64,000 bases of DNA from Alphaproteobacteria bacterium (GCA_965221495.1 OZ244896.1:2225471-2289470), one strand, 5' to 3'. Shown: positions 13,305 through 57,104, counted from the first letter of the stretch. The notes: generated by a model from the letters alone, not told the origin. Translations and numbers: made by a program.

Positions 13305-13316
13305 TTGGACACGTCG

Positions 13317-14228: not shown

Positions 14229-14500
14229 TGGGCCGATGAATGAGCGTTCGCCCGCGGGGGACGCCACAACCCACAGCGCCGCCTGTGATCCGAAGCATTG
14301 GCTTGAGGGTTACAAACGCACTAGTCCAGATCGAACCCCGTTTCGGGTTGCTGGATTCGGTTTCGGCCAACGGTTGGCCGGCTGCCAACGCGCCGATTCT
14401 GTTCTCTAGTCGGGCCGACTGAGACAACCACCAAAAGGCCCGTTCGCAGGGCAAGGCGCACGTCTTGGAAAAAACCGTCGAATTTGGCGAAGTTTCGGGT

Positions 14501-14522
14501 TAACGTGCAATTTTATTACGTT
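14501..14522. promoter_or_regulatory. Weak candidate operator (AACGT-N11-ACGTT in an AT-rich patch) just upstream of the COG0523 gene
   Basis: TAACGTGCAATTTTATTACGTT lies 13 nt before ATG 14535. Only the outer 5 nt on each side are complementary. It shares the TAACGT/ACGTTA element with the 18.4-kb site. Confidence 0.25.
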
Positions 14523-14534
14523 CAGGATTGCGAG

Positions 14535-18719: not shown

Positions 18720-19769
18720 TTAGACCGGTATTGACGGATCCTGGGCGGCCCGGGCTTGCCGGGCAGCACGCGCTTCGCTCAAGCGCTGAAAATGAGGCAG
18801 ATCGCGGCGAAGGCTGTGCTCAATGGCGCCACGGTCGAGGTTGGAAGTGATGAACAGCAGGTGTGAACGATCAACCTCAATGTTCGGCACCCGCTGCGGA
18901 GGCTGGTAGACATGCTGGACACCATTGAGAATGACGGGTCCGTCCACGCCCTTGATCTTGACCGCCCCCTTGGTCCGGTACATGACGTCCCCGTTGGATT
19001 CGGTGCCTGCATTCAGCCAACCGTGCAGGGCTTCCCATTCAAACGGATGTGAAACTTCGATGGAAAATCCGTGCAGTCCGTTCGCAAGGTTGTCTCGACT
19101 GGCATAGTGCGACGACGCTAGCCAACTGCCCAGATCCCCGTTCAGCAATCGTGTTTCCAGGCCCGCCCCGGTTAGTGCGTCCGCCAGACAGGGCTGGTCG
19201 GAGGACACCAGTTCGGCGCCGGGATTCAATCCCTGCAACTGCGTGCGGGCTTCCGGAGCGGCAAGCGACGCCGGGTCCAGCACGATACGGTCCGCCACAG
19301 CAAGTTGCTTGAAGCCAAATTGCGACGTTGCCAGTGTCTGCAAACCATCTCGGGCTATGACTGCCACCACGCTGTCGAGGCGAAAGTAGTCCGTGACCAA
19401 GGCATTGTTCAGCAGCGTTTGCATGACCGGAGCCGGATCCGAGTCGGCCAGGGTTTCGATCAGCACATGATCGAATTCAACTTCCCCTTGTGTCCGGCGG
19501 GCGAACAGCTGGCGCAGGCTGCTGACCAGCCCTGAACGCGCGACGCAACACAGACATCCGACCGCGTGCGGCACCATCTGCCCCGCAATGCGTTCAATCG
19601 ACGCAACTGGGAACTCTGGTCCGACGGTTTCGTTGCTGATCACCGCCCAGTTAGCGCCACCCTTGGCGAGCAAGCGCTCGATGACTTCGGTGCGGGCACG
19701 GGCATCAGACCCGCACACCACGACCGCGGGGAACTTCGCTCGAGCGGTTTCCGGGACAAAACTCAGCAT
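18720..19769 (-). CDS. COG0523-like protein with degenerate nucleotide-binding motifs (putative pseudo-GTPase)
   Basis: It aligns by eye with the 14535 paralog. Walker A is replaced by [27 protein letters not shown] by ETLADSDP, and NKIDL by ADRIVL. The CxCC motif is kept (GCLCCVARSGL), as is the CobW_C-like tail (MYRTKGAVKIKGVDGPVILNGVQHVY). Confidence 0.75.
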   Translation of the reverse strand: MLSFVPETARAKFPAVVVCGSDARARTEVIERLLAKGGANWAVISNETVGPEFPVASIERIAGQMVPHAVGCLCCVARSGLVSSLRQLFARRTQGEVEFDHVLIETLADSDPAPVMQTLLNNALVTDYFRLDSVVAVIARDGLQTLATSQFGFKQLAVADRIVLDPASLAAPEARTQLQGLNPGAELVSSDQPCLADALTGAGLETRLLNGDLGSWLASSHYASRDNLANGLHGFSIEVSHPFEWEALHGWLNAGTESNGDVMYRTKGAVKIKGVDGPVILNGVQHVYQPPQRVPNIEVDRSHLLFITSNLDRGAIEHSLRRDLPHFQRLSEARAARQARAAQDPSIPV

Positions 19770-23056: not shown

Positions 23057-23360
23057 GCCGCCGTAGCTCAGTGGTAGAGCACACCCTTGGTAAGTACTTG
23101 CCTGCCCGGTGCGAAATCGCCGGGACTGAACCGCTCAAATTCGGGGAACGCTGCAGGCTGTGAAGCCGATGCCAATCCCGAGCCAAGCCTGCCTTTCCGG
23201 GCAGGAAGGTGTAGAGGCCAGACGGGCGGGACCCCCTAGGGGTCAAGGGATGGTCCGGACCACCAAACGCTGACAGCCCGCGCAGGAGCTGCCAGCGGCC
23301 GCGAAAGCGGCAGTGGTGCGAAGGGTGGGGTCGAGTGTTCAATTCACTCCGGCGGCACCA
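23057..23360 (+). tRNA. tRNA-Thr (anticodon GGU) interrupted by a group I intron; exons 23057-23091 and 23321-23360, CCA encoded
   Basis: The exons join into a canonical cloverleaf: acceptor GCCGCCG/CGGCGGC, D arm GCTC-AGTGGTA-GAGC, anticodon stem CACCC/GGGTG with loop TT-GGT-AA, T arm GAGTG-TTCAATT-CACTC, then ACCA. Confidence 0.85.
23092..23320 (+). ncRNA. Group I self-splicing intron (compact bacterial tRNA-intron type, IC3-like), 229 nt, no ORF
   Basis: The 5' exon ends in U (U36) and the intron ends in G (23320). Candidate IGS G23100-C-C pairs with G34-G35-U36, including a G.U wobble. Core strings TCAAATTCGGGGAA (23135-48), CGAGCCAAGC (23179-88), GGAAGGTGTAGAGGCCAGACGG (23204-) and CCAAACGCTG (23263-) closely match the Azoarcus tRNA-Ile intron core as I remember it. 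There is a P2 hairpin CCCGG/CCGGG and a GNRA hairpin GCCGC-GAAA-GCGGC. Confidence 0.85.
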
Positions 23361-23403
23361 TGATCCAGTGACGCTTCGGCGACCCGTTTCTGGGAGTGCG
23401 CGC

Positions 23404-24447
23404 GTGCCCGGACAAGACGTCCCGTTTGAAACCCAGATCAACAAGCTGTGGGGCCACATTCGCGGGCTGCACGTGCTCCATCTCATTCGCACAGGCGCTG
23501 ACCTTGGCTGGTTCCGGCAGCTCGCCGACGCCGGGCCTGAGGGTTTGACGCCGGAAGACCTCGCTGCCCCGCAGGGCCTGCACCTTCCCTATGTCAGAAT
23601 CTGGTGGAAGACCGCTATTGCATGGGAGCTTCTGGATCTCCTGCCTGATGGCAGGGCCCGCCTCGCACCGCACTTCGATTCGATCCTCGCGCGGCCCGGT
23701 GACCCGCGCTATCTCCTGCCCTACGTGATCGCCACCCTCGACCATTTCCAGCCCGATCTCGAAAGCCATGCAGGCGCAATGGCCAACGGTGCCACGCGGA
23801 CCTTCCAGGAGCATGGACACGCGTTTGCGGAGGCGATCGGCGACACCACCGCCGGCTTGCATGCGCTGATGGCGAGCCGGCTCCTGCCGGCGATCGAAGA
23901 AGTCCGGGGCGCCCTCGAAAACGGCGGCACGTTTCTCGATTACGGGTGCGGCGTGGGCGGTCTCGTGATCCGGGTCGCCAAGGCGTTTTCTGACGCCCGT
24001 TGTGCCGGCGTCGACATTCACAGCGAGGGCCTCGCGCAGGCGCGAGAGGCCGTGTCCGCTGCCGGACTTGACCCCCGCGTCACGATTCACGATGGCAACG
24101 ACTGGCGCGGTGACACCGCAAGCATCGACGTCATCGCAATGGTCGAGGTTCTGCACGAGATCCCCGAAACGGTACGCGGCGCGGCCCTTCAGGAGTGCCG
24201 GCGCCTCCTTCGGTCCGACGGACGCCTGGTGATTCTTGACGAAACGTTTCCCGAGGACAGCGATCTCCGCGCGCCCGAAGCTGCCCTCGCCGTCCAGACC
24301 CAGTTTAACGAAATGACCTGGGGCAACGTCGTGCCGACTGCGAAGGAACAGGAACAACTCGCAGCCGACGCCGGTCTCGCGATTCTTGACCGCAGCACCA
24401 TTGGTGGGATCTTTACCCAACTTATTCTGGCTCCGCTCGGAGAGTGA
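23404..24447 (+). CDS. Class I SAM-dependent methyltransferase with an N-terminal winged-helix/dimerisation-like domain (start uncertain: GTG 23368 or 23404)
   Basis: FLDYGCGVGGLVIRVA (motif I), DVIAMVEVLHEI and GRLVILDE. The ORF-track ATG at 23335 lies inside the tRNA 3' exon, so it was rejected. Confidence 0.72.
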   Translation: MPGQDVPFETQINKLWGHIRGLHVLHLIRTGADLGWFRQLADAGPEGLTPEDLAAPQGLHLPYVRIWWKTAIAWELLDLLPDGRARLAPHFDSILARPGDPRYLLPYVIATLDHFQPDLESHAGAMANGATRTFQEHGHAFAEAIGDTTAGLHALMASRLLPAIEEVRGALENGGTFLDYGCGVGGLVIRVAKAFSDARCAGVDIHSEGLAQAREAVSAAGLDPRVTIHDGNDWRGDTASIDVIAMVEVLHEIPETVRGAALQECRRLLRSDGRLVILDETFPEDSDLRAPEAALAVQTQFNEMTWGNVVPTAKEQEQLAADAGLAILDRSTIGGIFTQLILAPLGE

Positions 24448-24449
24448 GC

Positions 24450-25223
24450 ATGGACATTCAGGACAAGGTCGTCGCGGTCACGGGCGGCGGCAGCGGGATC
24501 GGCCGTGCGTTGGCGCTCGAAGCGCATCGGCGCGGTGCCCGCACCGTGGTGGTGGGCGACATCAACGAGGACGCCGCCAAGGCCTGCGGCACCGCCTGCG
24601 GCGGTCGCGGTTGGGCGATGGATGCCGGCGACGACGCGTCAGTAGCCGGGTTCATTGCGGCTGCGGAAGCGTTTGCCGGACCGATCGACCTGTACTGCTC
24701 CAACGCCGGCATCCACCGCGCGGGCGGCGTCGAGACGTCCCTGGACGACTGGCAGGCTTGCTGGGACGTCAACGTGATGAGCCACACGTATGCGGCACGA
24801 CAGTTGGCACCGGGCTTGGCCGAACGCGGGGGCTGGTTCCTGATCACCGTTTCCGCGGCCGGGCTCCTGTCGCAGATCGGATCCGCGACGTATGCGACGA
24901 CCAAACACGCTGCGCTCGGGTTCGCCGAATGGCTCTCGATTGCCTGGGGTGATCGCGGCCTCGGGGTATCGGCACTGTGTCCGCAGGCCGTGCGCACGGA
25001 CATGATCGCGGGCCTCGACGACGGCGGGGTCGCGGGTCTCGACGGAATCCTTGAGCCCGAGGCCGTGGCCAGTGCCGCATTCGACGGGATCGCCGCGGGC
25101 AGTTTCCTGATCTTGCCGCACCCGAGCGTGGCCGAGTACGTGCAGCGCAAGGCGTCCGACCCCGATCGCTGGCTTCGCGGCATGCGCCGGTTGCAGGAAC
25201 GCTTCGGCGACGCCGCGTTGTGA
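24450..25223 (+). CDS. Short-chain dehydrogenase/reductase (SDR)
   Basis: TGGGSGIGRA (TGxxxGxG), NAG and YATTKHA (YxxxK). Confidence 0.88.
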   Translation: MDIQDKVVAVTGGGSGIGRALALEAHRRGARTVVVGDINEDAAKACGTACGGRGWAMDAGDDASVAGFIAAAEAFAGPIDLYCSNAGIHRAGGVETSLDDWQACWDVNVMSHTYAARQLAPGLAERGGWFLITVSAAGLLSQIGSATYATTKHAALGFAEWLSIAWGDRGLGVSALCPQAVRTDMIAGLDDGGVAGLDGILEPEAVASAAFDGIAAGSFLILPHPSVAEYVQRKASDPDRWLRGMRRLQERFGDAAL

Positions 25224-26467
25224 ATCGAGATCGCCGCATCCGGCTTAACCGCCGCGCGCTTCTCGGAGGGGCGGCGGCGGGAACACTCGCTCCCGGCGCC
25301 GCGCTCGCGGCGCGTGCCGGCGCGGGGGCGCCCGACTGGATGCTCGTCCCGGGACGCGTGTTTCGCGAGTACGGCACGCCAGCCCCGCAAGAGACGGACG
25401 TGGGCCGCGAGATCCTTCAGCCGTATGAAGACGTGTCCCCGGGCGCCGGCGTGGCGATGACGCCGCTCGAAGATCTTGAGGGGACGATCACACCCAACGG
25501 GCTGCACTTCGAGCGGAGCCACAACGGCGTACCCGCCATCGACCCCCTGCAGCACGAACTCCTGATCCACGGCGAAGTCGAACGCGACCTGCTCTTCGCC
25601 CCGACCGATCTTCTCCGATACCCGATGGAGACCAGGACTCTTTTCATTGAATGCGCGGGGAACAGTTTCTTCAACTCCAATGCCTTTCCGCTGGCTGTGG
25701 ACGAATCGTGCGGCATGATTCACGGCTTGGTCTCGACCGCGGAGTGGACCGGCGTCCCGTTGTCGCTCCTCCTCGGCGAAGCCAACCCCCGCAGGGGCGC
25801 CCGTTGGCTGGTCGCCGAAGGCGCCGATGCGAACGCCATGAGCCGCAGCCTGCCGATGGAAAAGGCGTTGGACGACGTCCTAGTGGCGCTGTACCAGAAC
25901 GGGGAGCGGATTCGGCCGGAACAGGGCTATCCGATGCGGCTGGTCGTGCCGGGCTGGGAGGGCAACCTCAATATCAAGTGGCTGCGCCGCATCAAGGTGG
26001 TCGAAGCGCCCCTGTACACCCGGGACGAGACCTCCAAGTACAGTGACCTCATGCCCGGCGGACGGGCCCTGAAATTTACCTTCCCCATGGATGTCAAATC
26101 GGTCATCGTCCGGCCCAGCGGGGGACAGACCCTCGTCCCCGGCTTTCAGCACATTTCCGGATTGGCCTGGTCCGGGCATGGCCCCATCCGGACGGTTGAG
26201 GTATCCACCGACGGCGGAGCGTCGTGGCAGCCGGCGGCACTCGATGGGCGGCCTCCGGACCGGGCGCCCGTCCGGTTCCGGCTGAACTGGAACTGGGACG
26301 GAAGCCCGACCACGATTCTGTCGCGGGCGGCCGACCGGGCCGGCAACCGGCAAGAACTCCGCTCGGAATGGTCATCGCAGTATGCCCACGGCCACCTCTA
26401 TCACTGCAACGCCATTCAGAGTTGGCAGATCAGCAGCGATGGCAGCGTGACCAACATCTACCTCTGA
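25220..26467 (+). CDS. Sulfite-oxidase-family molybdopterin subunit (SorA/SoxC-like), TAT-exported
   Basis: NRRALLGGAAAG is a TAT signal. Other motifs are TPNGLHFERSHNGVP, the Mo-ligand Cys context FIECAGNS, GYPMRLVVPGWEGNLNIKWLRRI and a C-terminal dimerisation domain. Confidence 0.85.
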   Translation: MNRDRRIRLNRRALLGGAAAGTLAPGAALAARAGAGAPDWMLVPGRVFREYGTPAPQETDVGREILQPYEDVSPGAGVAMTPLEDLEGTITPNGLHFERSHNGVPAIDPLQHELLIHGEVERDLLFAPTDLLRYPMETRTLFIECAGNSFFNSNAFPLAVDESCGMIHGLVSTAEWTGVPLSLLLGEANPRRGARWLVAEGADANAMSRSLPMEKALDDVLVALYQNGERIRPEQGYPMRLVVPGWEGNLNIKWLRRIKVVEAPLYTRDETSKYSDLMPGGRALKFTFPMDVKSVIVRPSGGQTLVPGFQHISGLAWSGHGPIRTVEVSTDGGASWQPAALDGRPPDRAPVRFRLNWNWDGSPTTILSRAADRAGNRQELRSEWSSQYAHGHLYHCNAIQSWQISSDGSVTNIYL

Positions 26468-26492: not shown

Positions 26493-29400
26493 GTGACCCG
26501 ACCTCACGCCGCACTGCTGCTGGTGCTGTCCTGCAGCTGGTCGCTGCCAGCGCTGGGCGACCAACCGCCGACCTCGCCAAATCTCGGACGCGAAGCCCCT
26601 GAGGAAATCGTCCGGCAGATGGACATTTCGATCGGCCCGGACGGGGCGACCCTGCCCCCCGGTTCCGGCTCGGTCGCGGAGGGTGAAGCGGTGTACCAGG
26701 CGCAGTGCATCGCCTGCCACGGCGCCGAGGGCGGCGGTGGCGACGCCGACATGCTCACAGGCGGTGTGGGCACGCTCGGTACCGCACAGCCGGTGAAGAC
26801 CGTTGGATCCTACTGGCCCTACGCGACGACCCTTTTCGACTACATCCGGCGCTCCATGCCCCACAACGCGCCGCTGTCGCTGACGGATGACGAAACCTAT
26901 GCGGTCACAGCGTATCTGCTGTGGACCAATCAGATTGTGGGTCAGGATGTCGTGCTGGATGCGGAGACGCTTCGGGCCGTGCAAATGCCGAACCGGAAGG
27001 GTTTTGTGGACGCGTGGGGACCACCATGGAAGCGCGTCTGGCACACGTCGGGGCTGAGTGTTTTGGCGGTGGCGCTTCTGATCGGGGCCGTCATCGCCTC
27101 TCTCGCGTTCGCAGACCCGCTCACCCGCAGGCCGCGGCTCTACCGCACCGTCCGGGTCGGGCTGCTCGCAGCGACGCTGATCGGGCTCGGCGGCTGGTTT
27201 GGCGTGCAGCCCGGCCTGCAGGAGATTGCCAACGCCGCTGCGACCGCCACGGCGGCCGGTGATTGGCGGCCGCTTCTGGGCATTCCCGCACTTGTCCTGA
27301 TCACGGTGTTTGCTCTGGTCGCGCTCGTGCTCTGGGGACGCGGCGCCTTCTGCGGCTGGCTTTGCCCGTTCGGGGCGCTCCAGGATTTCCTGTACCGGAT
27401 CGCCCGCCTGCTGGGCATTCCCCGCTACGAACCGCCGGGGCGGGTCCACCACACACTGCGGTTCGTGAAGTACGCGGTCCTCGCAGGCATCGTGTTTGTC
27501 GCCGTGTTCACGCCCGCCATGCTCGGCCCGGTCCTGGCGGCGGAGCCGTTTTCCACGGCGATCAATCATGCCTTTCTGCGTCCATGGCCGTATGTCGCAT
27601 GGGCGGTGGTCTGCCTGGGCATTGCGCTGTTCACCGAACGCGCGTTCTGTCGGTACCTGTGCCCGTTTGGTGCAGGCCTCGCGATTGGCGGGCGACTGCG
27701 GATGCTGAACTGGTTGCGGCGGCACCGTGCATGCGGCACCACCTGCACCAACTGTGAGCCGATCTGTCCCACTCGCGCCATCCGCACCGACGGCACGATC
27801 GATCATTCGGAATGCATCCAGTGCCTCCGGTGCCAGGAAGCGTATTTCGATTCCGCCTTTTGCCCCGCAGCCAAACCGCCCAAGAGGCAATCACGCACTG
27901 CCGGACAGGCAGCCGCGGCCGTCTTGGTGGCCGGACTTGGTCTGATAGCCGTCGATCAGGCCTCCGCCGACATGTACGACCCGCTGTCCACCCGACTCAC
28001 GCCCGGCGTCGTAGCCAAAACCTTTCCCGGGGCTGCGAGCGTGGAGGCGCCGGCCGGAGACCCTCCGGCGGCGGCAGTTGTGGACGGCGATGCTGTGCAG
28101 GGCTGGCTGTTTTCGACCTTCGAGACGGTCAACCCTCGCGGATATTCGGGCGAACCGTTTGATATCATTGTTGGTCTCGATCGCGCAGGACGCATCACTG
28201 GGTCCGCCGTGCTGGAGCTCCACGAACCCATGGTCGGGCCCAGCCTGATCCCCCAGACGAAGCTCGAAGACCTGTTCGAGGGGCTTCGGAACCTCGACGT
28301 GCGGAGGCCTGTGCGCTTTTCCGGGCGCGGTGTGGACGGCGTTCGCGGCGCGACCATCAGTGCGACCCTCACCTACAACGCGATCGTCCTCTCCGCCCGC
28401 AAGATGGCACGGATGCAGGGGCTGCTGGGTGACGAGGAAAACAGCGGCCCGTTCCACCTTGACCTCGACCGTTTCGAGTCGCGTGACTGGCAGGCGCTTC
28501 TCGACTGGGGCGGGGTGGTTGGCGGCCGCTTCACGGCCTCGGACCTCGGCCTTGCAGCCGCCGACGACGCTGGCGACGCAGGTGAGCCGGTGCTCTCCCT
28601 GTACGCGGCACTGGCGACGCCCGCCGAGGTCGGACGCAACCTATTCGGCGGCCAATGGTTCAATCACCACGTCTCGCAAATCGGCTACGGCGACCAGCTC
28701 CTTGCCATCCTGGGCGCCGGCAGCATCTCTTGGCGCGGCAACGCGTTCCGGAGATCCGGCCAATACGACCGCATTCGCCTGATCCAGGGTGAGCAGTCCT
28801 TCCAATTCACCAAATCGGAGGCGCTGACGGCCACTGCGGTGCGGACCGAGGGTCGCCCCCTGTTCTCCGAAACCGGCCTGTTCCGGATCCCGCGCGAGTG
28901 GAAGTTCAACCCCCTGGAGCCGTGGACGCTGGCACTCAATGTTCCCGAGAACGCCGGCGGAGGGGCTGTAGCGATTGAGTATCGGCTGCCGCAGGAACTC
29001 ATCGGCGGCGATCCGATAGCCCTCGAAGACGCCGGACTGCGGCCTCTCCAGACCTCCTACCTCGGACTCGTCCGCACCAGCGCACTCTCAGGCTGGCAAC
29101 GGGTTTGGGCGGAACACGACGAAGCCATCATGGGCCTGGTCGGGCTGCTGGCCGTCCTGACAGTGCTCGTCGCCTGGCCCCAGGTCATTTCACGCAATCG
29201 GCGTGTCCATCTTTGGGTCCGGCTCGGATTTCTCGCAATCGTCATCGGCTGGCTCGGCTGGGGCGCGAACGCCCAACTGACGATCGTCAACGTGCTGACG
29301 TATGGCCAGGCCGTATTCACCGGTGGCTGGATCAGCTTCCTCTACGAGCCTCTCATTGTCATCATTGCGGTCTACACACTGGTCTCGCTGTTCATGCTCG

Positions 29401-29987
29401 GCCGCGGCGTGTTTTGCGGCTGGCTCTGCCCCTTCGGCGCATTGCAGGAACTCCTGGCCCGGCTGGCGCGTACGCTGCGGCTGCCGACGCTGACGCTCGG
29501 AGACACCGTCAACGAGCGGCTGTGGGCGCTGAAATACGTCGTGCTGGCGGCACTCGTGGGCAGTGCCGTGACGCAGGGCATGGGCAGCACGCAGGCACTG
29601 GCAGAAGTCGAGCCGTTCAAGACCGCCATTACGCTGCGTTTCGACCGCAGTTTGCCGTACGTCGCCTATGCGGGCGCACTGCTGGCGGTGGGCCTGTTCG
29701 TGGAGCGGTTCTACTGCCGTTTTCTGTGCCCTCTCGGCGCGGCAGTGGCTGTCATCGGCAAGCTGCGCATCTTCGGCAACCTGGTGCGCCGGGCGGAATG
29801 CGGGAACCCGTGCCGGCTGTGCGAACGCGCCTGCCCGGTCCAGGCCATTCCGGCGAGCGGCGCCATCAACATGAACGAATGCTTCCAGTGCCTAGACTGC
29901 CAGGTCGAGTATCACGACGACCAGCGCTGCCCGCCGCTCGCGCAGCTCCGCCGCTCGCTCACGCCGAGTGTTTCCGCGTCTGGCTAG
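26493..29987 (+). CDS. 1164-aa fusion: secreted mono-haem cytochrome c, a NapH/NosR-type membrane FeS module, a NosR-type FMN-binding periplasmic domain, and a second NosR membrane/polyferredoxin module
   Basis: N-terminus has a signal peptide plus CIACHG ... RRSMP. Module A: FCGWLCPFGALQDF, FCRYLCPFGAG, CGTTCTNCEPICPTRAI, CIQCLRCQ. The FMN_bind-like region reads GYSGEPFDIIVGLDRAGRITG ... VDGVRGATISAT. Module B: FCGWLCPFGALQEL, YCRFLCPLGAA, CGNPCRLCERACPVQAI, CFQCLDCQ. Confidence 0.8.
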   Translation: MTRPHAALLLVLSCSWSLPALGDQPPTSPNLGREAPEEIVRQMDISIGPDGATLPPGSGSVAEGEAVYQAQCIACHGAEGGGGDADMLTGGVGTLGTAQPVKTVGSYWPYATTLFDYIRRSMPHNAPLSLTDDETYAVTAYLLWTNQIVGQDVVLDAETLRAVQMPNRKGFVDAWGPPWKRVWHTSGLSVLAVALLIGAVIASLAFADPLTRRPRLYRTVRVGLLAATLIGLGGWFGVQPGLQEIANAAATATAAGDWRPLLGIPALVLITVFALVALVLWGRGAFCGWLCPFGALQDFLYRIARLLGIPRYEPPGRVHHTLRFVKYAVLAGIVFVAVFTPAMLGPVLAAEPFSTAINHAFLRPWPYVAWAVVCLGIALFTERAFCRYLCPFGAGLAIGGRLRMLNWLRRHRACGTTCTNCEPICPTRAIRTDGTIDHSECIQCLRCQEAYFDSAFCPAAKPPKRQSRTAGQAAAAVLVAGLGLIAVDQASADMYDPLSTRLTPGVVAKTFPGAASVEAPAGDPPAAAVVDGDAVQGWLFSTFETVNPRGYSGEPFDIIVGLDRAGRITGSAVLELHEPMVGPSLIPQTKLEDLFEGLRNLDVRRPVRFSGRGVDGVRGATISATLTYNAIVLSARKMARMQGLLGDEENSGPFHLDLDRFESRDWQALLDWGGVVGGRFTASDLGLAAADDAGDAGEPVLSLYAALATPAEVGRNLFGGQWFNHHVSQIGYGDQLLAILGAGSISWRGNAFRRSGQYDRIRLIQGEQSFQFTKSEALTATAVRTEGRPLFSETGLFRIPREWKFNPLEPWTLALNVPENAGGGAVAIEYRLPQELIGGDPIALEDAGLRPLQTSYLGLVRTSALSGWQRVWAEHDEAIMGLVGLLAVLTVLVAWPQVISRNRRVHLWVRLGFLAIVIGWLGWGANAQLTIVNVLTYGQAVFTGGWISFLYEPLIVIIAVYTLVSLFMLGRGVFCGWLCPFGALQELLARLARTLRLPTLTLGDTVNERLWALKYVVLAALVGSAVTQGMGSTQALAEVEPFKTAITLRFDRSLPYVAYAGALLAVGLFVERFYCRFLCPLGAAVAVIGKLRIFGNLVRRAECGNPCRLCERACPVQAIPASGAINMNECFQCLDCQVEYHDDQRCPPLAQLRRSLTPSVSASG

Positions 29988-30190: not shown

Positions 30191-31915
30191 ATGCATCTTC
30201 TTTCGAAACTGACGATGGCCGCGGTCGGCGCCGCTGTAAGCCTTGGGCTTGCGACGTCCGCATTCGCGCAGGGCATCGACATTCTTGCGGCTCCTAAGCA
30301 GCAACCGAACTACGTGTCGGATGACATGCTCATGAACGCCGACAAGGACCCGATGAACTGGCTCCACTACGGCCGCGACTACGAAAGCACCCGGTACGCG
30401 CTGCAGACAGCGATCAACCAGGACAACGCCAAGGATCTCGAGGCGGAGTGGTACCTGTCGTTCGGAACTCTTGAGGGGCAGGACAGCCAGGCAGTCGCCG
30501 TTGGCGGTACGGTCTACGTCACGACCTCGTTCAACCGGGTTATCGCTGCTGACGGCCAGACCGGTGTCATCAAGTGGAAGTACGAGCACGAGCTGCCGGC
30601 CGACGTTTATCCGCAGCTCTGCTGCGACGTCGTAAACCGCGGCGTTGCTCCCTACAAGGACAACGTCTACCTCGCCACGCTCGACGCTCACCTTGTCGCG
30701 CTTGACAACGCCACCGGCGATGTCGTTTTCGACAAGACGGTTGGCGACTACACGTACGCCGAAACGTTCACCGTCATGCCGATGGCCTTGCAGGGCAAGA
30801 TCATCATCGGCACCGCGGGTGCCGAGTATGGTGTCCGTGGCTGGGTCCGCGCCCTTGACGCAGAGAACGGCGACACCGTCTGGAACACCTACACCATCCC
30901 GGCCGAAGGCGAGCCCAACAACGACACGTGGGCCGGTGAATCGTGGAAGTACGGTGGCGGATCCGCATGGATTACCGGTTCGTACGACAAGGACCTGCAC
31001 CTGCTGTACTGGCCTGTCGGCAACCCGGGTCCGGACTTCGACCGGCACGTGCGTCTGGGTGACAACCTGTACTCGAACTCGACGATCGTCCTTGACCCTG
31101 ACACGGGCGCGATCAAGTTCTGGTTCCAGTACACGCCGAACGACCCGTATGACTACGACGGTGTCAACGAGGTCATCCTGGCCGACATCGACGGCAAGAA
31201 GGTCTGGCTCCACGGTGACCGCAACGGCCACCTCTACTCCATCGACCGGACCAACGGTAAGTGCAACTGGGTAGTCCCGCTCGGCCGCATCAACTGGACC
31301 CCCGGGTTCAAGGACAACTGCCGTCCCATCATGGCTTGGGAAGAAGGCGGCGATCCGATGATGGACGTGGTCTACGACCGGCGCACCAACGACATTGCTC
31401 CGTCGCTCGACGGCGGCAAGGAGTGGCACCCGATGGCCTACTCCCCGCGGGTGAACATGGTCTACGTGCCGACCTACAACTTCTCCATGGATCTCCAGGC
31501 GAAGAAGATGGAATGGCGTCGTGGCGAATGGTACCTGGGTGCCAAGGTCCTCACGTTCAACAAGGGCAACGGCGCCGTCAAGGCGTACGACGCGTCCACA
31601 GGTGACCTGACCTGGATTCGCCCCCACAGCACGCCCGCGACGGGCGGCATGATGGCGACCGCCGGGGGCCTGGTTTTCTACGGTGACGCCGAGGGCTTCT
31701 TCCACGCAGTCCGCGACGACACGGGTGAGCAACTCTGGTCCTTCAACGTTGGAACCGGCGTGCACGGCAACCCGACCTCCTACACGGTCGGTGGCAAGCA
31801 GTACGTCACCATCGTGGTCGGCGCTGGCGGTGGCGGCATCTGGCCGCTTACGTTCGGCGAGTGGCTCCAGAACCACACCAAGGGCGGCGGCTTGTTCGCC
31901 TTTGGCATCGACTGA
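30191..31915 (+). CDS. PQQ-dependent alcohol/methanol dehydrogenase with the lanthanide-type Asp (XoxF/PedH-like)
   Basis: Signal peptide, a vicinal Cys pair (QLCCDVVNRG), W-motif propeller repeats, and DPYDYDGVNE. In Ca-dependent MxaF the corresponding residue is Ala (DYAG); Asp marks Ln-dependent enzymes. GGGAGG precedes ATG 30191, and the ORF-track extension back to 29105 was rejected. Confidence 0.88.
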   Translation: MHLLSKLTMAAVGAAVSLGLATSAFAQGIDILAAPKQQPNYVSDDMLMNADKDPMNWLHYGRDYESTRYALQTAINQDNAKDLEAEWYLSFGTLEGQDSQAVAVGGTVYVTTSFNRVIAADGQTGVIKWKYEHELPADVYPQLCCDVVNRGVAPYKDNVYLATLDAHLVALDNATGDVVFDKTVGDYTYAETFTVMPMALQGKIIIGTAGAEYGVRGWVRALDAENGDTVWNTYTIPAEGEPNNDTWAGESWKYGGGSAWITGSYDKDLHLLYWPVGNPGPDFDRHVRLGDNLYSNSTIVLDPDTGAIKFWFQYTPNDPYDYDGVNEVILADIDGKKVWLHGDRNGHLYSIDRTNGKCNWVVPLGRINWTPGFKDNCRPIMAWEEGGDPMMDVVYDRRTNDIAPSLDGGKEWHPMAYSPRVNMVYVPTYNFSMDLQAKKMEWRRGEWYLGAKVLTFNKGNGAVKAYDASTGDLTWIRPHSTPATGGMMATAGGLVFYGDAEGFFHAVRDDTGEQLWSFNVGTGVHGNPTSYTVGGKQYVTIVVGAGGGGIWPLTFGEWLQNHTKGGGLFAFGID

Positions 31916-32031: not shown

Positions 32032-32856
32032 GTGAAACTTATTTCCACCTGCGCCGCTGCGTTTGCTTTCGTGTTGGCAGCATCGGCGAGCAGCATGGCC
32101 GAAGACGCGCTCGACAAGATCGAACAGCGCGGCGTCTTCACGATTTGCGCGGACCCCTACAATTGGCCGCACAGTTCGTCCTCGGACTATCCCCGCGGCT
32201 TCGACGTGGAGATCTTCTCGCAGATCGCAGCCAACCAGGGCTGGCGTGTCGAGATGTACTGGTCCAATACAGGCACGCGCGGCGGGCTTGGCCGGGCGCT
32301 GCGGAATTCGATTTCCAAGGGACGGTGCCAGGTGTTCACCGGGATCGCGATCGATCCCGATTCGATCGACGAGATCGGCGAAAAGGACCTGACCTTTTCA
32401 GCACCATACCTCGGCCTCGCCTACGTCCCCGTCGTCGACCCGCAGCTTTCCGGGCTGGCCTCTCTGGCAGAGATTGCCGAACAGACGGAAATCGGCGTTG
32501 CGATGTCAACAGTGATGGACGGGTACCTGATCGACAACGGGATCGAACGGGAGCTTTATCTCGGCAACCGGCGGGCGCTGGATGGACTCCGCAACGGAGA
32601 AACCAAGGCCGTCATGATCTGGGCACCGGCGCTGGCCATTGAAAATCGACGCCACAAGGATTCAAAATTTGCGCTGGTGGAAGCTTTCGAGCCAATTCAG
32701 GGCCTGCGCTGGAACATCGGCGCTGCAATTCCCCGGGCCGAGACCCGGTTGCTTGAACTGGTAAACGCCGAGTTGCGCACGATGCTTGATGACGGAACCA
32801 TCGAGGCAATTGTGTCCGAATATCAAATTCCTTTTTTCCCGCCCTTCCCGGACTGA
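32032..32856 (+). CDS. Quinoprotein-dehydrogenase-associated periplasmic binding protein (XoxJ/MxaJ-like, SBP family 3)
   Basis: Signal peptide, then GVFTICADPYNWPHSS ... GFDVEI .... Position next to the PQQ dehydrogenase supports the call. GTG start at 32032. Confidence 0.72.
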   Translation: MKLISTCAAAFAFVLAASASSMAEDALDKIEQRGVFTICADPYNWPHSSSSDYPRGFDVEIFSQIAANQGWRVEMYWSNTGTRGGLGRALRNSISKGRCQVFTGIAIDPDSIDEIGEKDLTFSAPYLGLAYVPVVDPQLSGLASLAEIAEQTEIGVAMSTVMDGYLIDNGIERELYLGNRRALDGLRNGETKAVMIWAPALAIENRRHKDSKFALVEAFEPIQGLRWNIGAAIPRAETRLLELVNAELRTMLDDGTIEAIVSEYQIPFFPPFPD

Positions 32857-32882: not shown

Positions 32883-33353
32883 ATGGACCTTCATCTAATT
32901 CGCCGTCTGTCAACCGTCATTGCCACCGCAGCGGTTCTCACAATACTGTCCGCGCCACACGGAATTGCCGCCGAGGATCTGGGATACGGAGGCGAGGACG
33001 ACATCGAAAATCCGTTTGAGGGCGACCCTGCGGCAATCGAGCACGGCAAGGAACGGTACGGCGCGCGCTGCGCATTCTGTCACGGCAGCCGAGGAATTGG
33101 AGCCAAAGGCCCTTGCCTCAGTTGCAACAAATTCAAAAAGGGCGGGGGAAGAAACCTCGATATCTATTCGGTGATTGCCGGCGGGTTGACGATCAACGGT
33201 CGTCCGACCCAAATGGGGGGATTCTCGCGCACGCTTTCGGATGAAGACATCTGGGCGATCATCGCCTATTTGCGCTACGAGTACGAGAGCCGGCGGTCAG
33301 CCGGTGAGTTCGAAGAGGGCTACAACCCCGTCGCTGCCGAAGCCGGCCGCTGA
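32883..33353 (+). CDS. Secreted mono-haem c-type cytochrome (XoxG/cytochrome cL-like role plausible)
   Basis: Signal peptide, CAFCHG haem motif and a downstream Met region (RPTQMGGF). Confidence 0.72.
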   Translation: MDLHLIRRLSTVIATAAVLTILSAPHGIAAEDLGYGGEDDIENPFEGDPAAIEHGKERYGARCAFCHGSRGIGAKGPCLSCNKFKKGGGRNLDIYSVIAGGLTINGRPTQMGGFSRTLSDEDIWAIIAYLRYEYESRRSAGEFEEGYNPVAAEAGR

Positions 33354-33395: not shown

Positions 33396-34196
33396 TCACG
33401 GCGTTGCACCGGACCCGCCGTCGGGCAGATGGGGGCGGATTTGGCTTTCAGTCGCGGAGCCGGGTGCTGTGGTGTCAGCGGCCGCGAACGCGGGTTCCGA
33501 TCCCGTGCGGTTCTGCAGCGCCACCGGCAAACCGATTTCCCGCAATAGCTTCTGCTGGATGGCCGCGGCAAAGTCCCGGTAGTCGTCGGCCACCATCAGA
33601 AACGAGCCCACGCCGCCAATGACGCTGTGCTCAAAATAATTGTCGAGAAACGGCTCCTCGTTCACAATTGCAAGACCATTGACGGTCACACCCTGCTCGA
33701 TCGCCAGATCACGAAGGGTCATCGGGTGCACCCCGTTATTGGCCCGCCCGTCGCCTGACACATCGATCACCCGCCTGTTGCTTTCAATGCCGTTGCTCTC
33801 GAGCTCCTGCATGGCGAATGCGATCGCTCCCGCGATTGATGTCTGACCTCCAGGAATGGCCCGGGGCGCGCTTCGCAGCAGGCGCGAGTACGCCGCGGCA
33901 TCGGCTGTGCTCCGGATAATCTGCCAATCCGTTACCGACGCCTGCTCCCGATTGTCGGACCATTGCACGACCGTCACAGCCAAACCGCCCGGACCCATCG
34001 CACCAATGGCGTCAAGCACCGCCGGGTGCCGGAATGCAGCTGCAATGCCGCCCATCTGCAGGCGATATTCCCTTTCATCGACACTCGATGACACATCAAT
34101 CGCAATAATCAGTTCCATGTCCACGGATTCAGCCGCGACCGGGAATCCCGCAGTTTGCAGGACACCCACGCACAGAAGTGTCGGCCAAAATTTCAT
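33396..34196 (-). CDS. DUF1194-family secreted vWA-like protein with a MIDAS motif
   Basis: Signal peptide MKFWPTLLCVGVLQTAGFPVAA, IAIDVSSSVD (DxSxS), VIDVSGDGRANNG and VTVNGLAI. Confidence 0.75.
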   Translation of the reverse strand: MKFWPTLLCVGVLQTAGFPVAAESVDMELIIAIDVSSSVDEREYRLQMGGIAAAFRHPAVLDAIGAMGPGGLAVTVVQWSDNREQASVTDWQIIRSTADAAAYSRLLRSAPRAIPGGQTSIAGAIAFAMQELESNGIESNRRVIDVSGDGRANNGVHPMTLRDLAIEQGVTVNGLAIVNEEPFLDNYFEHSVIGGVGSFLMVADDYRDFAAAIQQKLLREIGLPVALQNRTGSEPAFAAADTTAPGSATESQIRPHLPDGGSGATP

Positions 34197-35596
34197 CGGG
34201 ACACCGGTTCGTCCGGGTGCAATGCCGCCAGCGCCCATGCCGCCGCCGCACGGACATTCTCCGACGGATCGTCCAGGGAGGCCCGCAGGGCATCGACCGC
34301 ATGGTCGGCGCCCACACTTCCCAGCGCTTCAGCCGCCAGCGCCCGGACCTGTGAATCGGAAGCCGAAAGATAGGAAAGGATGTGGGGCGCTGTCGCTGAC
34401 GCAGTTGGACCAAGCTCGATCACCGCCTGGAGAACACCGGTCAGAAGAAGGGGGTCACCGTACTCCAGCACCACGGCAAGTTCGGAAACCGCGTCGGCAC
34501 CCATATTTCGAATCGCCTGTACAACTGCCCAGGACACATTCTCGTCCGGATCGGCCAACGCCGATACCAGGTCCGGCGTAATTTCCGGTCCCACTCCCGG
34601 CCCCATCAGACCAAGAGCGTCGGCCGCCGCTCGGCGGATCCGCGCTTCGGTATCACGCAGGAGCGGCGCCACCTGCTCTGCCCCGGACACACCCGCATCG
34701 CCGAGATCCGCATACCCCTTGACCGCCTCGTAGCGCACCACGGGCTCAGGGTCGGACACGGCTTCGCGAAATACCTGGAGCGCAGCTTCCACGATGGCCC
34801 GACGAAGAGACGGATAGCCCCGCATCCGTTCCGCCGATGTCATTGCCTTCGGCCAGACCTCCTCCTGAGGATCGGTGAGCCATCCTGTCTCCCCAGGCCA
34901 GTCCCTGTCACCCGCAATCCGGCGGATGCAGAGCACTGCTGCGGCTCGCAGCTCCGGGTTCGGATTCCGGGCAAGCGGGGTGACGCGGGGAACCGCAACC
35001 CCGGCTCGCGCTCCATGTGCGGCCAGCGCTTTCAAAGCGTTGAATTGCTTCTCTAGGCTGGGATCGTCGAGCACCTGCATCAAGGCGGCCACCGCCACCG
35101 GCCCCATCTTGCCGAGGGTCGACGCGGCAGAAGCACGAACGGCAGGTTCGGGATCGTCCAGAAGTTGGATCAGAGCGGGCGTCGCCACGGCTGCCTTCAG
35201 CCCAAAGCTCTCCATGGCGCCGGCAGCGGCCCAGCGAATGTCCGGGTGCGAATCGTCAAGAAGTTCAACCAGGGCCGTAATCGTGCGGTGGGCCTGGCCG
35301 CTGATCCGTTCGAGCGCGCGGATCGCCTGAATCCGTACCGCTAGATCCGGATCCCGCAACGCAGCCACGATCAGTGCATCAATGGCGGTGTTCGCATTCG
35401 ATCCGAGTGCACCCAACTGGACGGCGGAATGGGCGCGCTCATCGGTATCAGGACTTTGGAGTTCCTCGATCAGCCGCGCGACGTCGTCAAGCGATGCCGC
35501 CTTGGCAGAAACTGAAAGCACCAGTCCGCTCAACAGCGGCAGCAGGCTCCGACCTGCGCGACGCAGAACACATTCGACAGCACCCATGACGGTCAT
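34193..35596 (-). CDS. Secreted HEAT-repeat (PBS-lyase-type) protein
   Basis: Signal-like N-terminus (LLPLLSGLVLSVSAKA). Many repeats follow the pattern D.D..VR..A..ALG.....A...L...L.D (for example DPDLAVRIQAIRALE, DSHPDIRWAAAGAM, DPEPAVRASAASTLG, DPSENVRAAAAWALA). Confidence 0.75.
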   Translation of the reverse strand: MTVMGAVECVLRRAGRSLLPLLSGLVLSVSAKAASLDDVARLIEELQSPDTDERAHSAVQLGALGSNANTAIDALIVAALRDPDLAVRIQAIRALERISGQAHRTITALVELLDDSHPDIRWAAAGAMESFGLKAAVATPALIQLLDDPEPAVRASAASTLGKMGPVAVAALMQVLDDPSLEKQFNALKALAAHGARAGVAVPRVTPLARNPNPELRAAAVLCIRRIAGDRDWPGETGWLTDPQEEVWPKAMTSAERMRGYPSLRRAIVEAALQVFREAVSDPEPVVRYEAVKGYADLGDAGVSGAEQVAPLLRDTEARIRRAAADALGLMGPGVGPEITPDLVSALADPDENVSWAVVQAIRNMGADAVSELAVVLEYGDPLLLTGVLQAVIELGPTASATAPHILSYLSASDSQVRALAAEALGSVGADHAVDALRASLDDPSENVRAAAAWALAALHPDEPVSR

Positions 35597-57056: not shown

Positions 57057-57104
57057 TTGGTGGCTGGTTGCTGGCAGTCGGCACCGGGGAGGAAACTCGT
57101 CACC

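What the first reader, a model, noticed from the sequence alone, without database searches (positions are those of the whole stretch)
26493..29987. Single 1164-aa polypeptide fusing a periplasmic cytochrome c, an extra NapH/NosR-type membrane FeS module and a complete NosR
Canonical NosR/NirI, as I know it, has one periplasmic FMN-binding domain, one 5-6-TM module with two CX3CP motifs and one cytoplasmic polyferredoxin tail.

Here the membrane/FeS module is present twice, with clearly paralogous sequence:
- GRGAFCGWLCPFGALQDF versus GRGVFCGWLCPFGALQEL
- FCRYLCPFGAG versus YCRFLCPLGAA
- CTNCEPICPTRAI...CIQCLRCQ versus CRLCERACPVQAI...CFQCLDCQ

The FMN_bind domain (VRGATISAT) lies between the two copies. 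A signal-peptide-bearing mono-haem cytochrome c (CIACHG) is fused at the N-terminus.

The gene sits 25 nt after a SorA-like Mo subunit that has no separate SorB cytochrome. No nosZ is in the window. This suggests a dedicated trans-membrane electron conduit for a periplasmic sulfite-oxidase-family enzyme rather than for N2O reductase. I do not recognise that arrangement as a described system.
Basis: partly seen in the sequence, partly recalled or inferred. Interest (0 to 1): 0.7.

Follow-up and report, generated by a model that had tools for sequence, protein, structure and literature searches.

The report
SoxD cytochrome fused to doubled NosR module
A real but rare 1164-residue membrane protein arose when two neighbouring genes fused: a sulfur-enzyme cytochrome (SoxD) tied to an iron-sulfur membrane module, and a NosR-like flavoprotein. 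It probably wires a periplasmic SoxC-type molybdenum enzyme, and perhaps a neighbouring alcohol dehydrogenase, to the cell's electron pool.

Summary

- The upstream molybdoenzyme is SoxC-type, not SorA-type.
- The N-terminal cytochrome is a SoxD homologue, so the "missing" cytochrome partner is what is fused to the membrane module.
- The downstream lanthanide-type PQQ alcohol dehydrogenase genes, with DUF1194 and HEAT genes, are syntenic in every related locus long enough to show them.

**Origin of the fusion**
- In a low-GC marine lineage the same locus encodes two adjacent genes: SoxD-SoxD-TM/FeS (686 aa) and NosR-like (734 aa).
- The window ORF is therefore a fusion of neighbours. Its junction is the former NosR signal peptide, with AxA|DMYDPLS kept in six of seven fused clusters.
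- The two TM/FeS modules are old paralogues (40% identity), not a recent duplication.
- A third lineage independently fuses SoxD to the C-terminus of a NosR beside a SoxC gene.

**Rarity and assembly check**
- The fused form makes up 7 clusters at 90% identity, all from uncultured sources (two named: Alphaproteobacteria MAGs).
- Only two 50%-identity representatives among 1.84 billion proteins show a SoxD-to-TM layout.
- A near-identical contig that splits the ORF carries two homopolymer insertions inside a conserved Fe-S motif.

**Verdict**
This is a NosR/NapH-type transmembrane electron conduit for a SoxCD-like enzyme. The direction of electron flow is unresolved. It is a new variant of a known kind.

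The parts
25220..26467 (+). SoxC-type molybdopterin subunit (415 aa) with a twin-arginine signal (NRRALL); the likely periplasmic partner enzyme
   Evidence: TIGR04555 scores 499.7 bits against a cut-off of 420, and Pfam finds Oxidored_molyb plus Mo-co_dimer. PDB 2xts_A (SoxC) matches at E = 3e-96. The N-terminus carries a Tat motif.
26493..29987 (+). The 1164-aa fusion ORF: SoxD cytochrome - TM/FeS module 1 - relic signal peptide - NosR periplasmic domain - TM/FeS module 2
   Evidence: Full-length orthologues at 69-82% identity exist.
26493..26558 (+). N-terminal signal peptide (aa 1-22)
   Evidence: Hydrophobic N-terminus ahead of the cytochrome domain. Assigned by inspection.
26559..27047 (+). 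SoxD-type mono-haem cytochrome c domain (aa 23-185); haem motif CIACH at 26706-26720
   Evidence: PDB 2xts_B (SoxD) matches at E = 2e-38 over 143 residues. It is 58-69% identical to free-standing proteins, several named SoxD by JGI. C75, H76 and M122 are invariant and C72 is at least 90% conserved in the family.
27048..27668 (+). Membrane module 1: five predicted TM helices (aa 188-206, 220-238, 261-279, 329-347, 362-386) and CX3CP motifs at aa 287 and 386
   Evidence: Hydropathy and motif scan. NapH model matches aa 267-451. All motif cysteines are invariant.
27720..27872 (+). Cytoplasmic ferredoxin-like domain 1 (Cys 414, 418, 421, 425, 441, 444, 447, 457)
27873..27968 (+). Junction: basic stretch, short hydrophobic stretch and AxA (QASA|DMYDPLS). 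This is the former signal peptide of the NosR-like gene, now TM helix 6 or an internal cleavage site
   Evidence: It aligns with the signal peptide of the separate NosR gene in L003. The n-h-c shape and AxA|DMYDPLS / DMNAPLS boundary were found in six of seven fused clusters; P0004 was not matched by the search pattern.
27969..29117 (+). Periplasmic NosR-type domain (aa 493-875) with the flavinylation motif VDGVRGAT at 28332-28355; Thr621 codon at 28353-28355
   Evidence: It aligns with P. stutzeri NosR at IDGVSKAT. D615, G619, A620 and T621 are at least 90% conserved in 63 family members. AF2 pLDDT is mostly 80-95 here and the best PDB fold match is RnfG 7zc6_G.
29118..29777 (+). Membrane module 2: five predicted TM helices and CX3CP motifs at aa 975 and 1075
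29790..29942 (+). Cytoplasmic ferredoxin-like domain 2 (Cys 1103-1146)
24444..25223 (+). Short-chain dehydrogenase (SDR), overlapping its neighbours by 4 nt on each side; syntenic in the fused and split lineages
23400..24447 (+). SAM-dependent methyltransferase. The true start is uncertain and lies downstream of the mechanical start at 23335, which overlaps a tRNA exon
30191..31915 (+). PQQ-dependent methanol/ethanol-family dehydrogenase with a signal peptide, a vicinal Cys-Cys and a DYD (lanthanide-type) motif
   Evidence: TIGR03075 scores 553 bits against a cut-off of 480. The best PDB match is 6zcv, a quinoprotein ethanol dehydrogenase. It is 92-94% identical in the fused-lineage loci.
32032..32856 (+). 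XoxJ/MoxJ-like periplasmic binding protein
32883..33353 (+). XoxG/PedF-like cytochrome c
33396..34238 (-). DUF1194 (vWA-like) protein with a signal peptide; syntenic
34193..35596 (-). HEAT-repeat protein with a signal peptide; syntenic

Best explanation
**What it is**
The ORF is a genuine gene fusion (a 'Rosetta stone') of two neighbouring genes.
- The first gene encodes a SoxD-type haem c domain tethered to a NosR/NapH-type membrane module: five TM helices, two CX3CP motifs and a cytoplasmic di-cluster ferredoxin domain.
- The second gene encodes a NosR-like protein: a periplasmic flavin (FMN) domain with the flavinylation threonine, followed by the same kind of membrane module.
- The former signal peptide of the second gene survives as the linker.

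**How it most likely works (inferred)**
- The Tat-exported SoxC-type molybdoenzyme encoded 25 nt upstream exchanges electrons with the tethered SoxD haem.
- The two paralogous membrane modules act together as a built-in heterodimer. They connect the periplasmic haem and flavin with the quinone pool and/or cytoplasmic Fe-S clusters.
- The C-terminal half may do the same for the adjacent lanthanide-type PQQ dehydrogenase/XoxG system.

**Direction of electron flow**
My leaning, and the least certain step, is that electrons from periplasmic oxidation of sulfite or a related sulfur substrate enter the membrane through module 1. That would make the complex a membrane-coupled SoxCD rather than one that reduces soluble cytochrome c.

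**Shown**
The architecture, its conservation, its origin from two genes and the retention of all cofactor-binding residues.

**Inferred**
Cofactor loading, physical contact with SoxC, electron direction, substrate, and any cleavage at the junction.
For: **Identity of the parts**
- SoxD and SoxC homology.
- Homology of the N-terminal domain to free-standing SoxD cytochromes.
- NosR and NapH model hits.
- Flavinylation motif alignment and conservation.
- RnfG-like fold of the periplasmic domain.
- Predicted topology places the haem and flavin domains in the periplasm and both ferredoxin domains in the cytoplasm.

**Origin by fusion**
- L003/L004 carry the two halves as separate genes 1 nt apart in an otherwise syntenic locus.
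- Module 1 clusters with the split SoxD-TM proteins and module 2 with the split NosR.

**Link to SoxC**
- SoxC is adjacent in the fused form and in the split form.
- It is also adjacent to an independent NosR-TM-SoxD fusion that has no methanol/ethanol-type PQQ dehydrogenase in the fetched flanks.

**Selection on cofactor sites**
- Every CX3CP and ferredoxin cysteine in both modules is invariant across the family alignments.
- Of the haem residues, C75, H76 and M122 are invariant and C72 is at least 90% conserved.

**Not an artefact**
- Seven 90%-identity clusters share the full length, on contigs up to 3.4 Mb from separate assemblies.
- The one assembly that splits the ORF does so through two homopolymer insertions in a 2x-coverage contig, inside the invariant CEPICPTRAI motif.
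Against: - No cofactor, interaction or activity has been measured, and no member comes from a cultured organism.
- SUOX-family haem partners usually have positive midpoint potentials (my own knowledge), so handing electrons on to Fe-S clusters or FMN may be uphill. That favours the opposite direction.
- In characterised relatives the flow is thought to run outward: NosR to N2O reductase (PMC12052999) and NapGH to Nap.
- NosR-like proteins nearest the C-terminal half also occur with the PQQ set and no SoxC, so that half may have nothing to do with SoxC.
- The PQQ-XoxJ-XoxG trio also occurs with neither NosR nor SoxC, so it does not need the fusion protein.
- No ApbE flavin transferase gene was found among the window ORFs scanned.
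- AF2 gave no usable model of the N-terminal half or of how the halves pack.
Confidence: 0.6

Rival explanations
1. **Outward electron supply.** As proposed for NosR with N2O reductase, the modules would take electrons from quinol or a cytoplasmic donor. They would deliver them through FMN and the SoxD haem to periplasmic enzymes. That could drive the SoxC-like enzyme as a reductase of an unknown oxidised substrate. Alternatively it could keep the Mo and/or PQQ enzymes in an active redox state, or act as a quinol:cytochrome c bypass.
For: NosR is regarded as the electron donor for N2O reductase (PMC12052999). NapH-family proteins are quinol dehydrogenases (PMC8238504). The thermodynamic order low-potential Fe-S/FMN, then haem c, then Mo is downhill (my own knowledge). 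In the NosR-TM-SoxD fusions, FMN and haem sit on the same periplasmic face of one module.
Against: SoxC and the SoxD domain are about 50% identical to the oxidising SoxCD of Paracoccus. They are 59-64% identical to a stand-alone SoxC-SoxD pair, and SoxD-domain homologues are named S-disulfanyl-L-cysteine oxidoreductase SoxD by JGI. No candidate oxidant is encoded in the locus.
Confidence: 0.28
2. **Maturation or metal-handling factor.** The NosR-type modules would serve cofactor or metal redox chemistry during assembly of the periplasmic enzymes, by analogy with the related polyferredoxin CcoG, a cupric reductase. They would not carry catalytic electron flux.
For: NosR is needed to keep N2O reductase functional. 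The syntenic periplasmic vWA-like DUF1194 and HEAT proteins look like assembly factors. The CcoG analogy rests on my own knowledge.
Against: A tethered SoxD domain, the normal catalytic electron partner of SoxC, argues for catalytic electron flow. Three independent architectures keep SoxD covalently joined to the module.
Confidence: 0.08
3. **Artefact.** The long ORF would be two genes joined by an assembly or sequencing error.
For: One near-identical contig (L092) is called as 484-aa plus 671-aa genes.
Against: L092 differs from the window only by two 1-nt homopolymer insertions in a contig labelled 2x. These fall inside the invariant CEPICPTRAI motif rather than at the junction. Full-length orthologues at 69-82% identity occur in several independent assemblies. 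Codon-position GC is uniform across the junction.
Confidence: 0.02

Closest known systems
NosR of nos clusters (for example Pseudomonas stutzeri nosRZDFYL)
   Same: The C-terminal 670 aa match the NosR model end to end. Shared features are the periplasmic flavin domain with the conserved flavinylated Thr motif, five TM helices after the periplasmic domain, two CX3CP motifs and a cytoplasmic di-cluster ferredoxin tail.
   Different: The score is below the equivalog cut-off, 785 against 1000. No nosZ lies nearby, whereas 61 of 78 ordinary NosR loci have one. The protein carries a whole extra paralogous module plus a cytochrome c at its N-terminus.
'NapH-like' flavinylated extracytosolic electron-transfer systems next to ExaA-type PQQ alcohol dehydrogenases (Meheust et al. 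2021, PMC8238504)
   Same: A NosR/NapH-like Fer4_5 membrane protein with an extracytosolic FMN domain is encoded beside a PQQ methanol/ethanol-family dehydrogenase. That paper reports this for 172 genomes as an uncharacterised system. L087 is an example with a NosR-like protein from the group nearest the window's C-terminal half.
   Different: The main text of that paper does not mention molybdoenzymes or sulfite, and the three supplement files held gave no hits for PF00174. It describes no SoxD-type cytochrome fusion and no doubled module. No ApbE gene was seen in this window.
SoxCD sulfane dehydrogenase (PDB 2XTS) and stand-alone SoxCD-type sulfite dehydrogenases
   Same: The upstream protein and the N-terminal domain are clear homologues of SoxC and SoxD. 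The gene order, Mo subunit then cytochrome, matches the stand-alone pair in L089.
   Different: SoxD is normally a soluble periplasmic subunit. Here it is covalently tethered to a transmembrane Fe-S module. No soxYZ, soxB or soxAX genes are in the window.
NapH/MauN family (NapGH quinol dehydrogenase; MauN of methylamine dehydrogenase clusters)
   Same: Module 1 matches NapH models over the CX3CP and ferredoxin region. MauN is a precedent for such a protein encoded alongside a periplasmic quinoprotein dehydrogenase (my own knowledge).
   Different: Scores are far below the cut-offs, 115 against 213 bits. There are five rather than four TM helices, because the N-terminal domain is periplasmic. 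No NapG/MauM partner is present.
FbcH cytochrome b-c1 polyprotein of Bradyrhizobium (my own knowledge; no paper found)
   Same: Two membrane redox proteins are made from one ORF and joined by an internal signal peptide. The window junction keeps a basic n-region, a short h-region and an AxA motif in six of seven fused clusters.
   Different: Cleavage is untested here and the proteins are unrelated.

Membership tests
NosR (NCBIfam NF046105 equivalog) | Whole-protein score at or above the curated cut-off (1000 bits) | tested here: not met
   785.5 bits over aa 505-1154.
NosR (NCBIfam NF046105 equivalog) | Periplasmic FMN-binding domain with the ApbE flavinylation threonine | tested here: met
   VDGVRGAT(621) aligns with the P. 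stutzeri NosR motif. D615, G619, A620 and T621 are at least 90% conserved. There is an RnfG-like fold hit. Pfam FMN_bind itself is below threshold. This is sequence-level evidence only.
NosR (NCBIfam NF046105 equivalog) | Two CX3CP motifs and two ferredoxin-type Cys clusters after the TM helices | tested here: met
   Present in both halves and invariant.
NosR (NCBIfam NF046105 equivalog) | Encoded with nosZ and required for N2O reduction | tested here: not met
   No NosZ hit in the window, L001-L006 or L085-L088, against 61 of 78 ordinary NosR loci with one. The functional requirement cannot be tested here.
NapH/MauN family (TIGR02163, NF007013) | Score at or above the cut-off (213 / 234 bits) | tested here: not met
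   114.6 and 106.3 bits.
SoxD (cytochrome subunit of SoxCD) | Homology to the SoxD haem domain, a CxxCH motif, and a position directly downstream of soxC | tested here: met
   2xts_B at E = 2e-38. CIACH at aa 72. The SoxC-type gene ends 25 nt upstream.
SoxD (cytochrome subunit of SoxCD) | Soluble periplasmic subunit within a sox operon (soxXYZAB present) | tested here: not met
   It is fused to a 5-TM module. No other sox genes were found among the window ORFs scanned.
SoxC-type sulfite/sulfane dehydrogenase (TIGR04555), upstream gene | Score above the curated cut-off; Oxidored_molyb plus Mo-co_dimer domains; Tat signal | tested here: met
   499.7 bits against 420. Pfam domains found. NRRALL motif present.
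   117.9 bits.
Flavinylation-associated 'NapH-like' system (PMC8238504) | PF12801 membrane protein with an extracytosolic FMN-binding domain | tested here: met
Flavinylation-associated 'NapH-like' system (PMC8238504) | ApbE flavin transferase in the genome and actual covalent FMN | tested here: inconclusive
   No ApbE among the window ORFs scanned, but only 64 kb of the genome is visible. Covalent FMN cannot be tested here.
Polyprotein with an internal cleavable signal peptide (FbcH-like) | Internal n-h-c signal peptide with AxA at the domain boundary | tested here: met
   Found in six of seven fused clusters (P0004 was not matched by the search pattern). It is homologous to the signal peptide of the separate NosR gene.
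Polyprotein with an internal cleavable signal peptide (FbcH-like) | Cleavage into two polypeptides in vivo | not testable with these tools
   Needs proteomics or N-terminal sequencing.

The most novel reading that the evidence does not exclude
The SoxC/SoxD-TM/NosR assembly would be a new type of respiratory complex. It would import electrons from periplasmic oxidation of sulfite (or a related sulfur compound) across the membrane through paired NosR-type Fe-S modules, to quinone or to a low-potential cytoplasmic acceptor. This would give NosR-family modules, for the first time, a defined donor, path and direction. In addition, the protein would be made as a polyprotein and cut at the retained internal signal peptide.
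Probability: 0.2. Interest if true: 0.8.

Novelty: new variant of a known kind. Interest (0 to 1): 0.6.

Why it matters
How NosR/NapH-type membrane Fe-S proteins move electrons, and in which direction, is still unsettled. No solved structure of a NosR-type membrane module turned up by sequence or by fold search.

Here evolution has repeatedly tied such a module covalently to SoxD. SoxD is a cytochrome with a known partner (SoxC) and known chemistry. In one lineage two paralogous modules have also been welded together.

This has three consequences:
- It names a likely physical partner for the module.
- It suggests that the modules work in pairs.
- It offers a compact two-gene system (NosR-SoxD plus SoxC) in which donor, acceptor and direction could be measured.

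It also points to a membrane-coupled form of SoxCD-type sulfur oxidation, and to crosstalk with lanthanide-type alcohol oxidation, in uncultured Alphaproteobacteria.

Tried and rejected
- **AF2, full protein.** The C-terminal half was good, but the N-terminal half had pLDDT of 30-70. The packing of the halves cannot be read.
- **AF2, N-terminal half alone with 27 sequences.** Mean pLDDT was 49, so the model is unusable.
- **Deeper full-length alignment.** MAFFT placed the split SoxD-TM proteins on module 2. Those alignments were not used for modelling.
- **Fold search against the PDB.** It gave only RnfG for the flavin domain and nothing for the membrane module.
- **PDB sequence search with the NosR half.** No hits.
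- **Genome scan.** The count of two species genomes with the fusion is therefore a lower bound.
- **P0038 context look-up.** Not on record.
- **Supplement search of PMC8238504 for PF00174 and K00114.** Nothing in the files held.
- **Literature searches.** Searches for NosR with SoxCD or PQQ, for 'NosR-like' and for fbcH found nothing relevant.
- **First NosZ probe.** I picked the wrong ORF. The search was redone with a motif and a verified NosZ.
- **ThdT/XoxF-SoxBCD tetrathionate pathway.** I considered it as an explanation for finding SoxC and PQQ genes together. It remains only a lead. The PQQ enzyme here has ordinary alcohol-dehydrogenase hallmarks, and close relatives occur without any Sox or NosR genes.
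- **Recent internal duplication of the module.** Rejected by the module tree.

Full report
**1.

Window 26493..29987 (+) is a single open frame of 1164 codons. Third-position GC is 0.71-0.86 in every 300-nt block, including the middle.

- CIACH at aa 72.
- CX3CP at aa 287, 386, 975 and 1075.
- Two ferredoxin-type cysteine groups, at aa 414-457 and 1103-1146.
- VDGVRGATISAT at aa 614-625.

The two membrane/Fe-S modules are 40% identical over 282 residues, E = 1e-62. Pfam reports Fer4_5 four times and a class I cytochrome c at aa 61-145. NCBIfam aligns the NosR model end to end with aa 505-1154 (785 bits, below the 1000-bit cut-off). It aligns the NapH models with aa 267-451.

A hydropathy scan gives the following order:
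1. A signal peptide.
2. A periplasmic cytochrome domain.
3. Five TM helices.
4. A cytoplasmic ferredoxin domain.
5. One TM helix.
6. A periplasmic domain of about 380 aa.
7. Five more TM helices.
8. A second cytoplasmic ferredoxin domain.

**2. The partner enzyme is SoxC and the cytochrome is SoxD**

The gene that ends 25 nt upstream scores 499.7 bits on the SoxC-type sulfite dehydrogenase model (cut-off 420). It scores only 118 bits on the SorA model (cut-off 600). It matches chain A of the Paracoccus SoxCD structure 2XTS at E = 3e-96 and has a twin-arginine signal.

The N-terminal cytochrome domain of the fusion matches chain B of the same structure, SoxD, at E = 2e-38. It is 58-69% identical to thousands of free-standing proteins of about 180 aa, several of which JGI names SoxD. 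One such protein sits in a stand-alone SoxC-SoxD pair (L089).

So the Mo subunit does not lack a cytochrome. Its cytochrome has been grafted onto a membrane module.

**3. The ORF is a fusion of two neighbouring genes**

Full-length orthologues (1150-1174 aa, 69-82% identity) form seven clusters at 90% identity. They lie on contigs up to 3.4 Mb. Two GTDB species genomes carry them, both uncultured Alphaproteobacteria MAGs.

In a low-GC marine metagenome lineage (L003/L004) the same locus has two genes 1 nt apart:
- A 686-aa protein with two SoxD-type domains and one TM/FeS module.
- A 734-aa NosR-like protein.

A neighbour-joining tree of the TM/FeS modules groups module 1 of the fused proteins with the split SoxD-TM proteins. 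It groups module 2 with the split NosR. The duplication is therefore older than the fusion.

The linker in the fused proteins aligns with the signal peptide of the separate NosR gene. Six of seven fused clusters keep a basic stretch, a short Ala-rich hydrophobic stretch and AxA immediately before DMYDPLS (DMNAPLS in P0007). The seventh, P0004, was not matched by the search pattern. The linker sequence itself drifts freely. This is the shape of a cleavable signal peptide. Processing into two polypeptides, as in the Bradyrhizobium FbcH polyprotein (my own knowledge), is possible but untested.

**4. It is not an assembly artefact**

Contig L092 is 99.986% identical to the window over 14.8 kb, and there the ORF is called as two genes. 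The only differences are two single-base homopolymer insertions (TT for T, CCCC for CCC). They lie inside the codons for the invariant CEPICPTRAI Fe-S motif, and the contig is labelled 2x. The error is in L092. The split it causes is not at the domain junction.

**5.

The order is syntenic in the fused-lineage loci L001, L002 and L005, and in L006 as far as its fetched 21 kb reaches:
- methyltransferase, SDR, SoxC, the fusion;
- a PQQ dehydrogenase, a XoxJ-like protein and a XoxG-like cytochrome;
- DUF1194 and a HEAT-repeat protein on the opposite strand.

Apart from the methyltransferase, the split lineage has the same order.

The PQQ enzyme passes the methanol/ethanol-family cut-off. Its best PDB match is the quinoprotein ethanol dehydrogenase 6zcv, which I recognise as lanthanide-dependent PedH (my own knowledge). 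It has the vicinal Cys-Cys and a DYD motif, which from my own knowledge marks lanthanide-dependent enzymes. It is strikingly conserved: 93% identical where the fusion is 69%.

DUF1194 and the HEAT protein both have signal peptides.

**6. The locus is built from separable modules**

- L087 has HEAT, DUF1194, a NosR-like protein and the PQQ trio, but no SoxC. That NosR-like protein falls in the group nearest module 2 in the tree.
- Relatives of the PQQ enzyme at 68-70% identity occur as a bare PQQ-XoxJ-XoxG trio.
- L085 and L086 carry a 940-aa NosR with an extra TM helix and a C-terminal SoxD domain, 55-59% identical to the window's SoxD domain. A SoxC gene 60% identical to the window's follows directly. 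No methanol/ethanol-type PQQ enzyme lies in the fetched flanks. Their TM modules form a separate clade, so this is an independent fusion.

The SoxD-to-NosR-module link has therefore arisen at least twice. The NosR-to-PQQ link exists on its own. The window combines both.

Meheust et al. 2021 noted NosR/NapH-like flavoproteins next to ExaA-type dehydrogenases in 172 genomes, as an uncharacterised system. Their main text does not mention molybdoenzymes (PMC8238504).

**7. Rarity**

An exhaustive phmmer search with the N-terminal 490 aa was run against 1.84 billion 50%-identity representatives. Only two show a contiguous SoxD-to-TM match: one stands for the fused family and one for the split family.

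Ordinary NosR loci found in the genome scan have nosZ within 10 kb in 61 of 78 cases. The window and all its relatives have none. No nosZ, other sox genes or apbE were found among the window ORFs scanned. The surroundings are chromosomal housekeeping genes such as rpoD, dnaG, carB and greA.

**8. Mechanism**

*Shown.* All cofactor-binding residues are retained. In both modules every CX3CP and ferredoxin cysteine is invariant. Haem residues C75, H76 and M122 are invariant and C72 is at least 90% conserved. The flavinylation Thr621 and its motif are at least 90% conserved across 63 NosR-family sequences. The periplasmic domain of the C-terminal half is modelled with high confidence, and its best PDB match is the FMN subunit RnfG.

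*Inferred.* The Tat-exported SoxC-like enzyme docks on the tethered SoxD haem, as in SoxCD. The haem and the FMN domain are the periplasmic ends of two paired NosR-type modules. Those modules connect to quinone and/or to the cytoplasmic Fe-S domains.

Adjacency of the two genes in one lineage and their fusion in another argue that the two membrane proteins work as a complex.

The direction of flow is open:
- Because SoxC and SoxD are close to oxidising SoxCD enzymes, I lean toward electrons entering the membrane from substrate oxidation.
- The usual positive potential of such haems, and the outward flow assumed for NosR (PMC12052999) and NapGH, support the opposite direction.
- A maturation role is a weaker third option.

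**9. Comparison and novelty**

The protein works like a NosR/NapH-type transmembrane electron-transfer protein, but it fails membership of NosR proper on score and on the nosZ context. Its N-terminal domain is a SoxD homologue but not a soluble Sox subunit.

The doubled module, the SoxD graft and the pairing with a SoxC-type enzyme were not found in the literature searched. I rate it a new variant of a known kind.

**10. Side observation**

Immediately upstream of the operon lies a tRNA-Thr(GGU) gene interrupted by a 229-nt intron (details under Noticed in passing). The standard tRNA scans had missed it.

Noticed in passing
window 23057-23360 (+); also L002 6457-6736, L005 2916-3218, L006 3256-3557, L092 166-469: A tRNA-Thr(GGU) gene is interrupted in the anticodon loop by a 229-nt intron (205-228 nt in relatives). 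Default ARAGORN and the Rfam tRNA model miss it, and ARAGORN with introns allowed finds it. Rfam group I intron hits are below threshold (24.4 and 23.5 bits against a gathering score of 50) but span the whole model. The exons are identical in four genomes, and 10 intron base pairs show compensatory changes. From memory, the core resembles the small Azoarcus-type tRNA group I introns. I do not know of one described in tRNA-Thr.
   Followed up: partly
window 23335-23400: The mechanical start of the methyltransferase ORF (GTG at 23335) overlaps the 3' exon of that tRNA. Homologues align only from residue 17-23 onward, so the real start is further downstream.
   Followed up: partly
L092 4875-4880 versus window 27765-27770: A public contig from the same population (99.986% identical, labelled 2x) has two homopolymer insertions. 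They break the fusion ORF into two gene calls, and the database protein P0008 (671 aa, starting at Met494) is a product of this error.
   Followed up: yes
window 30191-31915: The PQQ dehydrogenase is far more conserved than its neighbours: 93% identical in L002, where SoxC is 75%, the fusion 69% and the methyltransferase 57%. It is still 79% identical in the low-GC lineage. At least 120 database clusters are 67% identical or more, with names spanning Rhodospirillaceae, Burkholderiales and Planctomycetota MAGs. It carries a DYD lanthanide-type motif.
   Followed up: partly
window 48222-49190 (-) and 49218-52520 (-): A second sulfite-oxidase-fold protein (Oxidored_molyb only, 322 aa) lies next to a large molybdopterin oxidoreductase ORF (Molybdopterin, Molydop_binding, Fe4S4 domains). 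That ORF overlaps an FAD-oxidase/Fe-S ORF on the other strand at 51705-54635, so the gene boundaries there need proper calling.
   Followed up: no
window 55845-58074 (+): There is a run of DUF3179, cytochrome P460 and a YHS-domain protein. Cytochrome P460 is associated with hydroxylamine/NO chemistry (my own knowledge).
   Followed up: no
window 11437-15878 (+) and 18720-19769 (-): A ZnuABC-type metal uptake operon (ABC_tran, ABC-3, ZnuA) is followed by a CobW-family GTPase. A second CobW-family gene lies nearby and a FUR-family regulator sits at 6709-7236. Together these look like a zinc-limitation island.
   Followed up: no
L003 3248-5308 (protein P0033 and relatives): The split-lineage SoxD-TM proteins carry two tandem SoxD-type haem domains (CxxCH at aa 81 and 261), where the fused lineage has one.
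   Followed up: partly
window 60961-63873 (-): A 970-aa ORF has no Pfam match at E <= 1e-4. Next to it is a 562-aa pentapeptide-repeat protein at 58698-60386.
   Followed up: no
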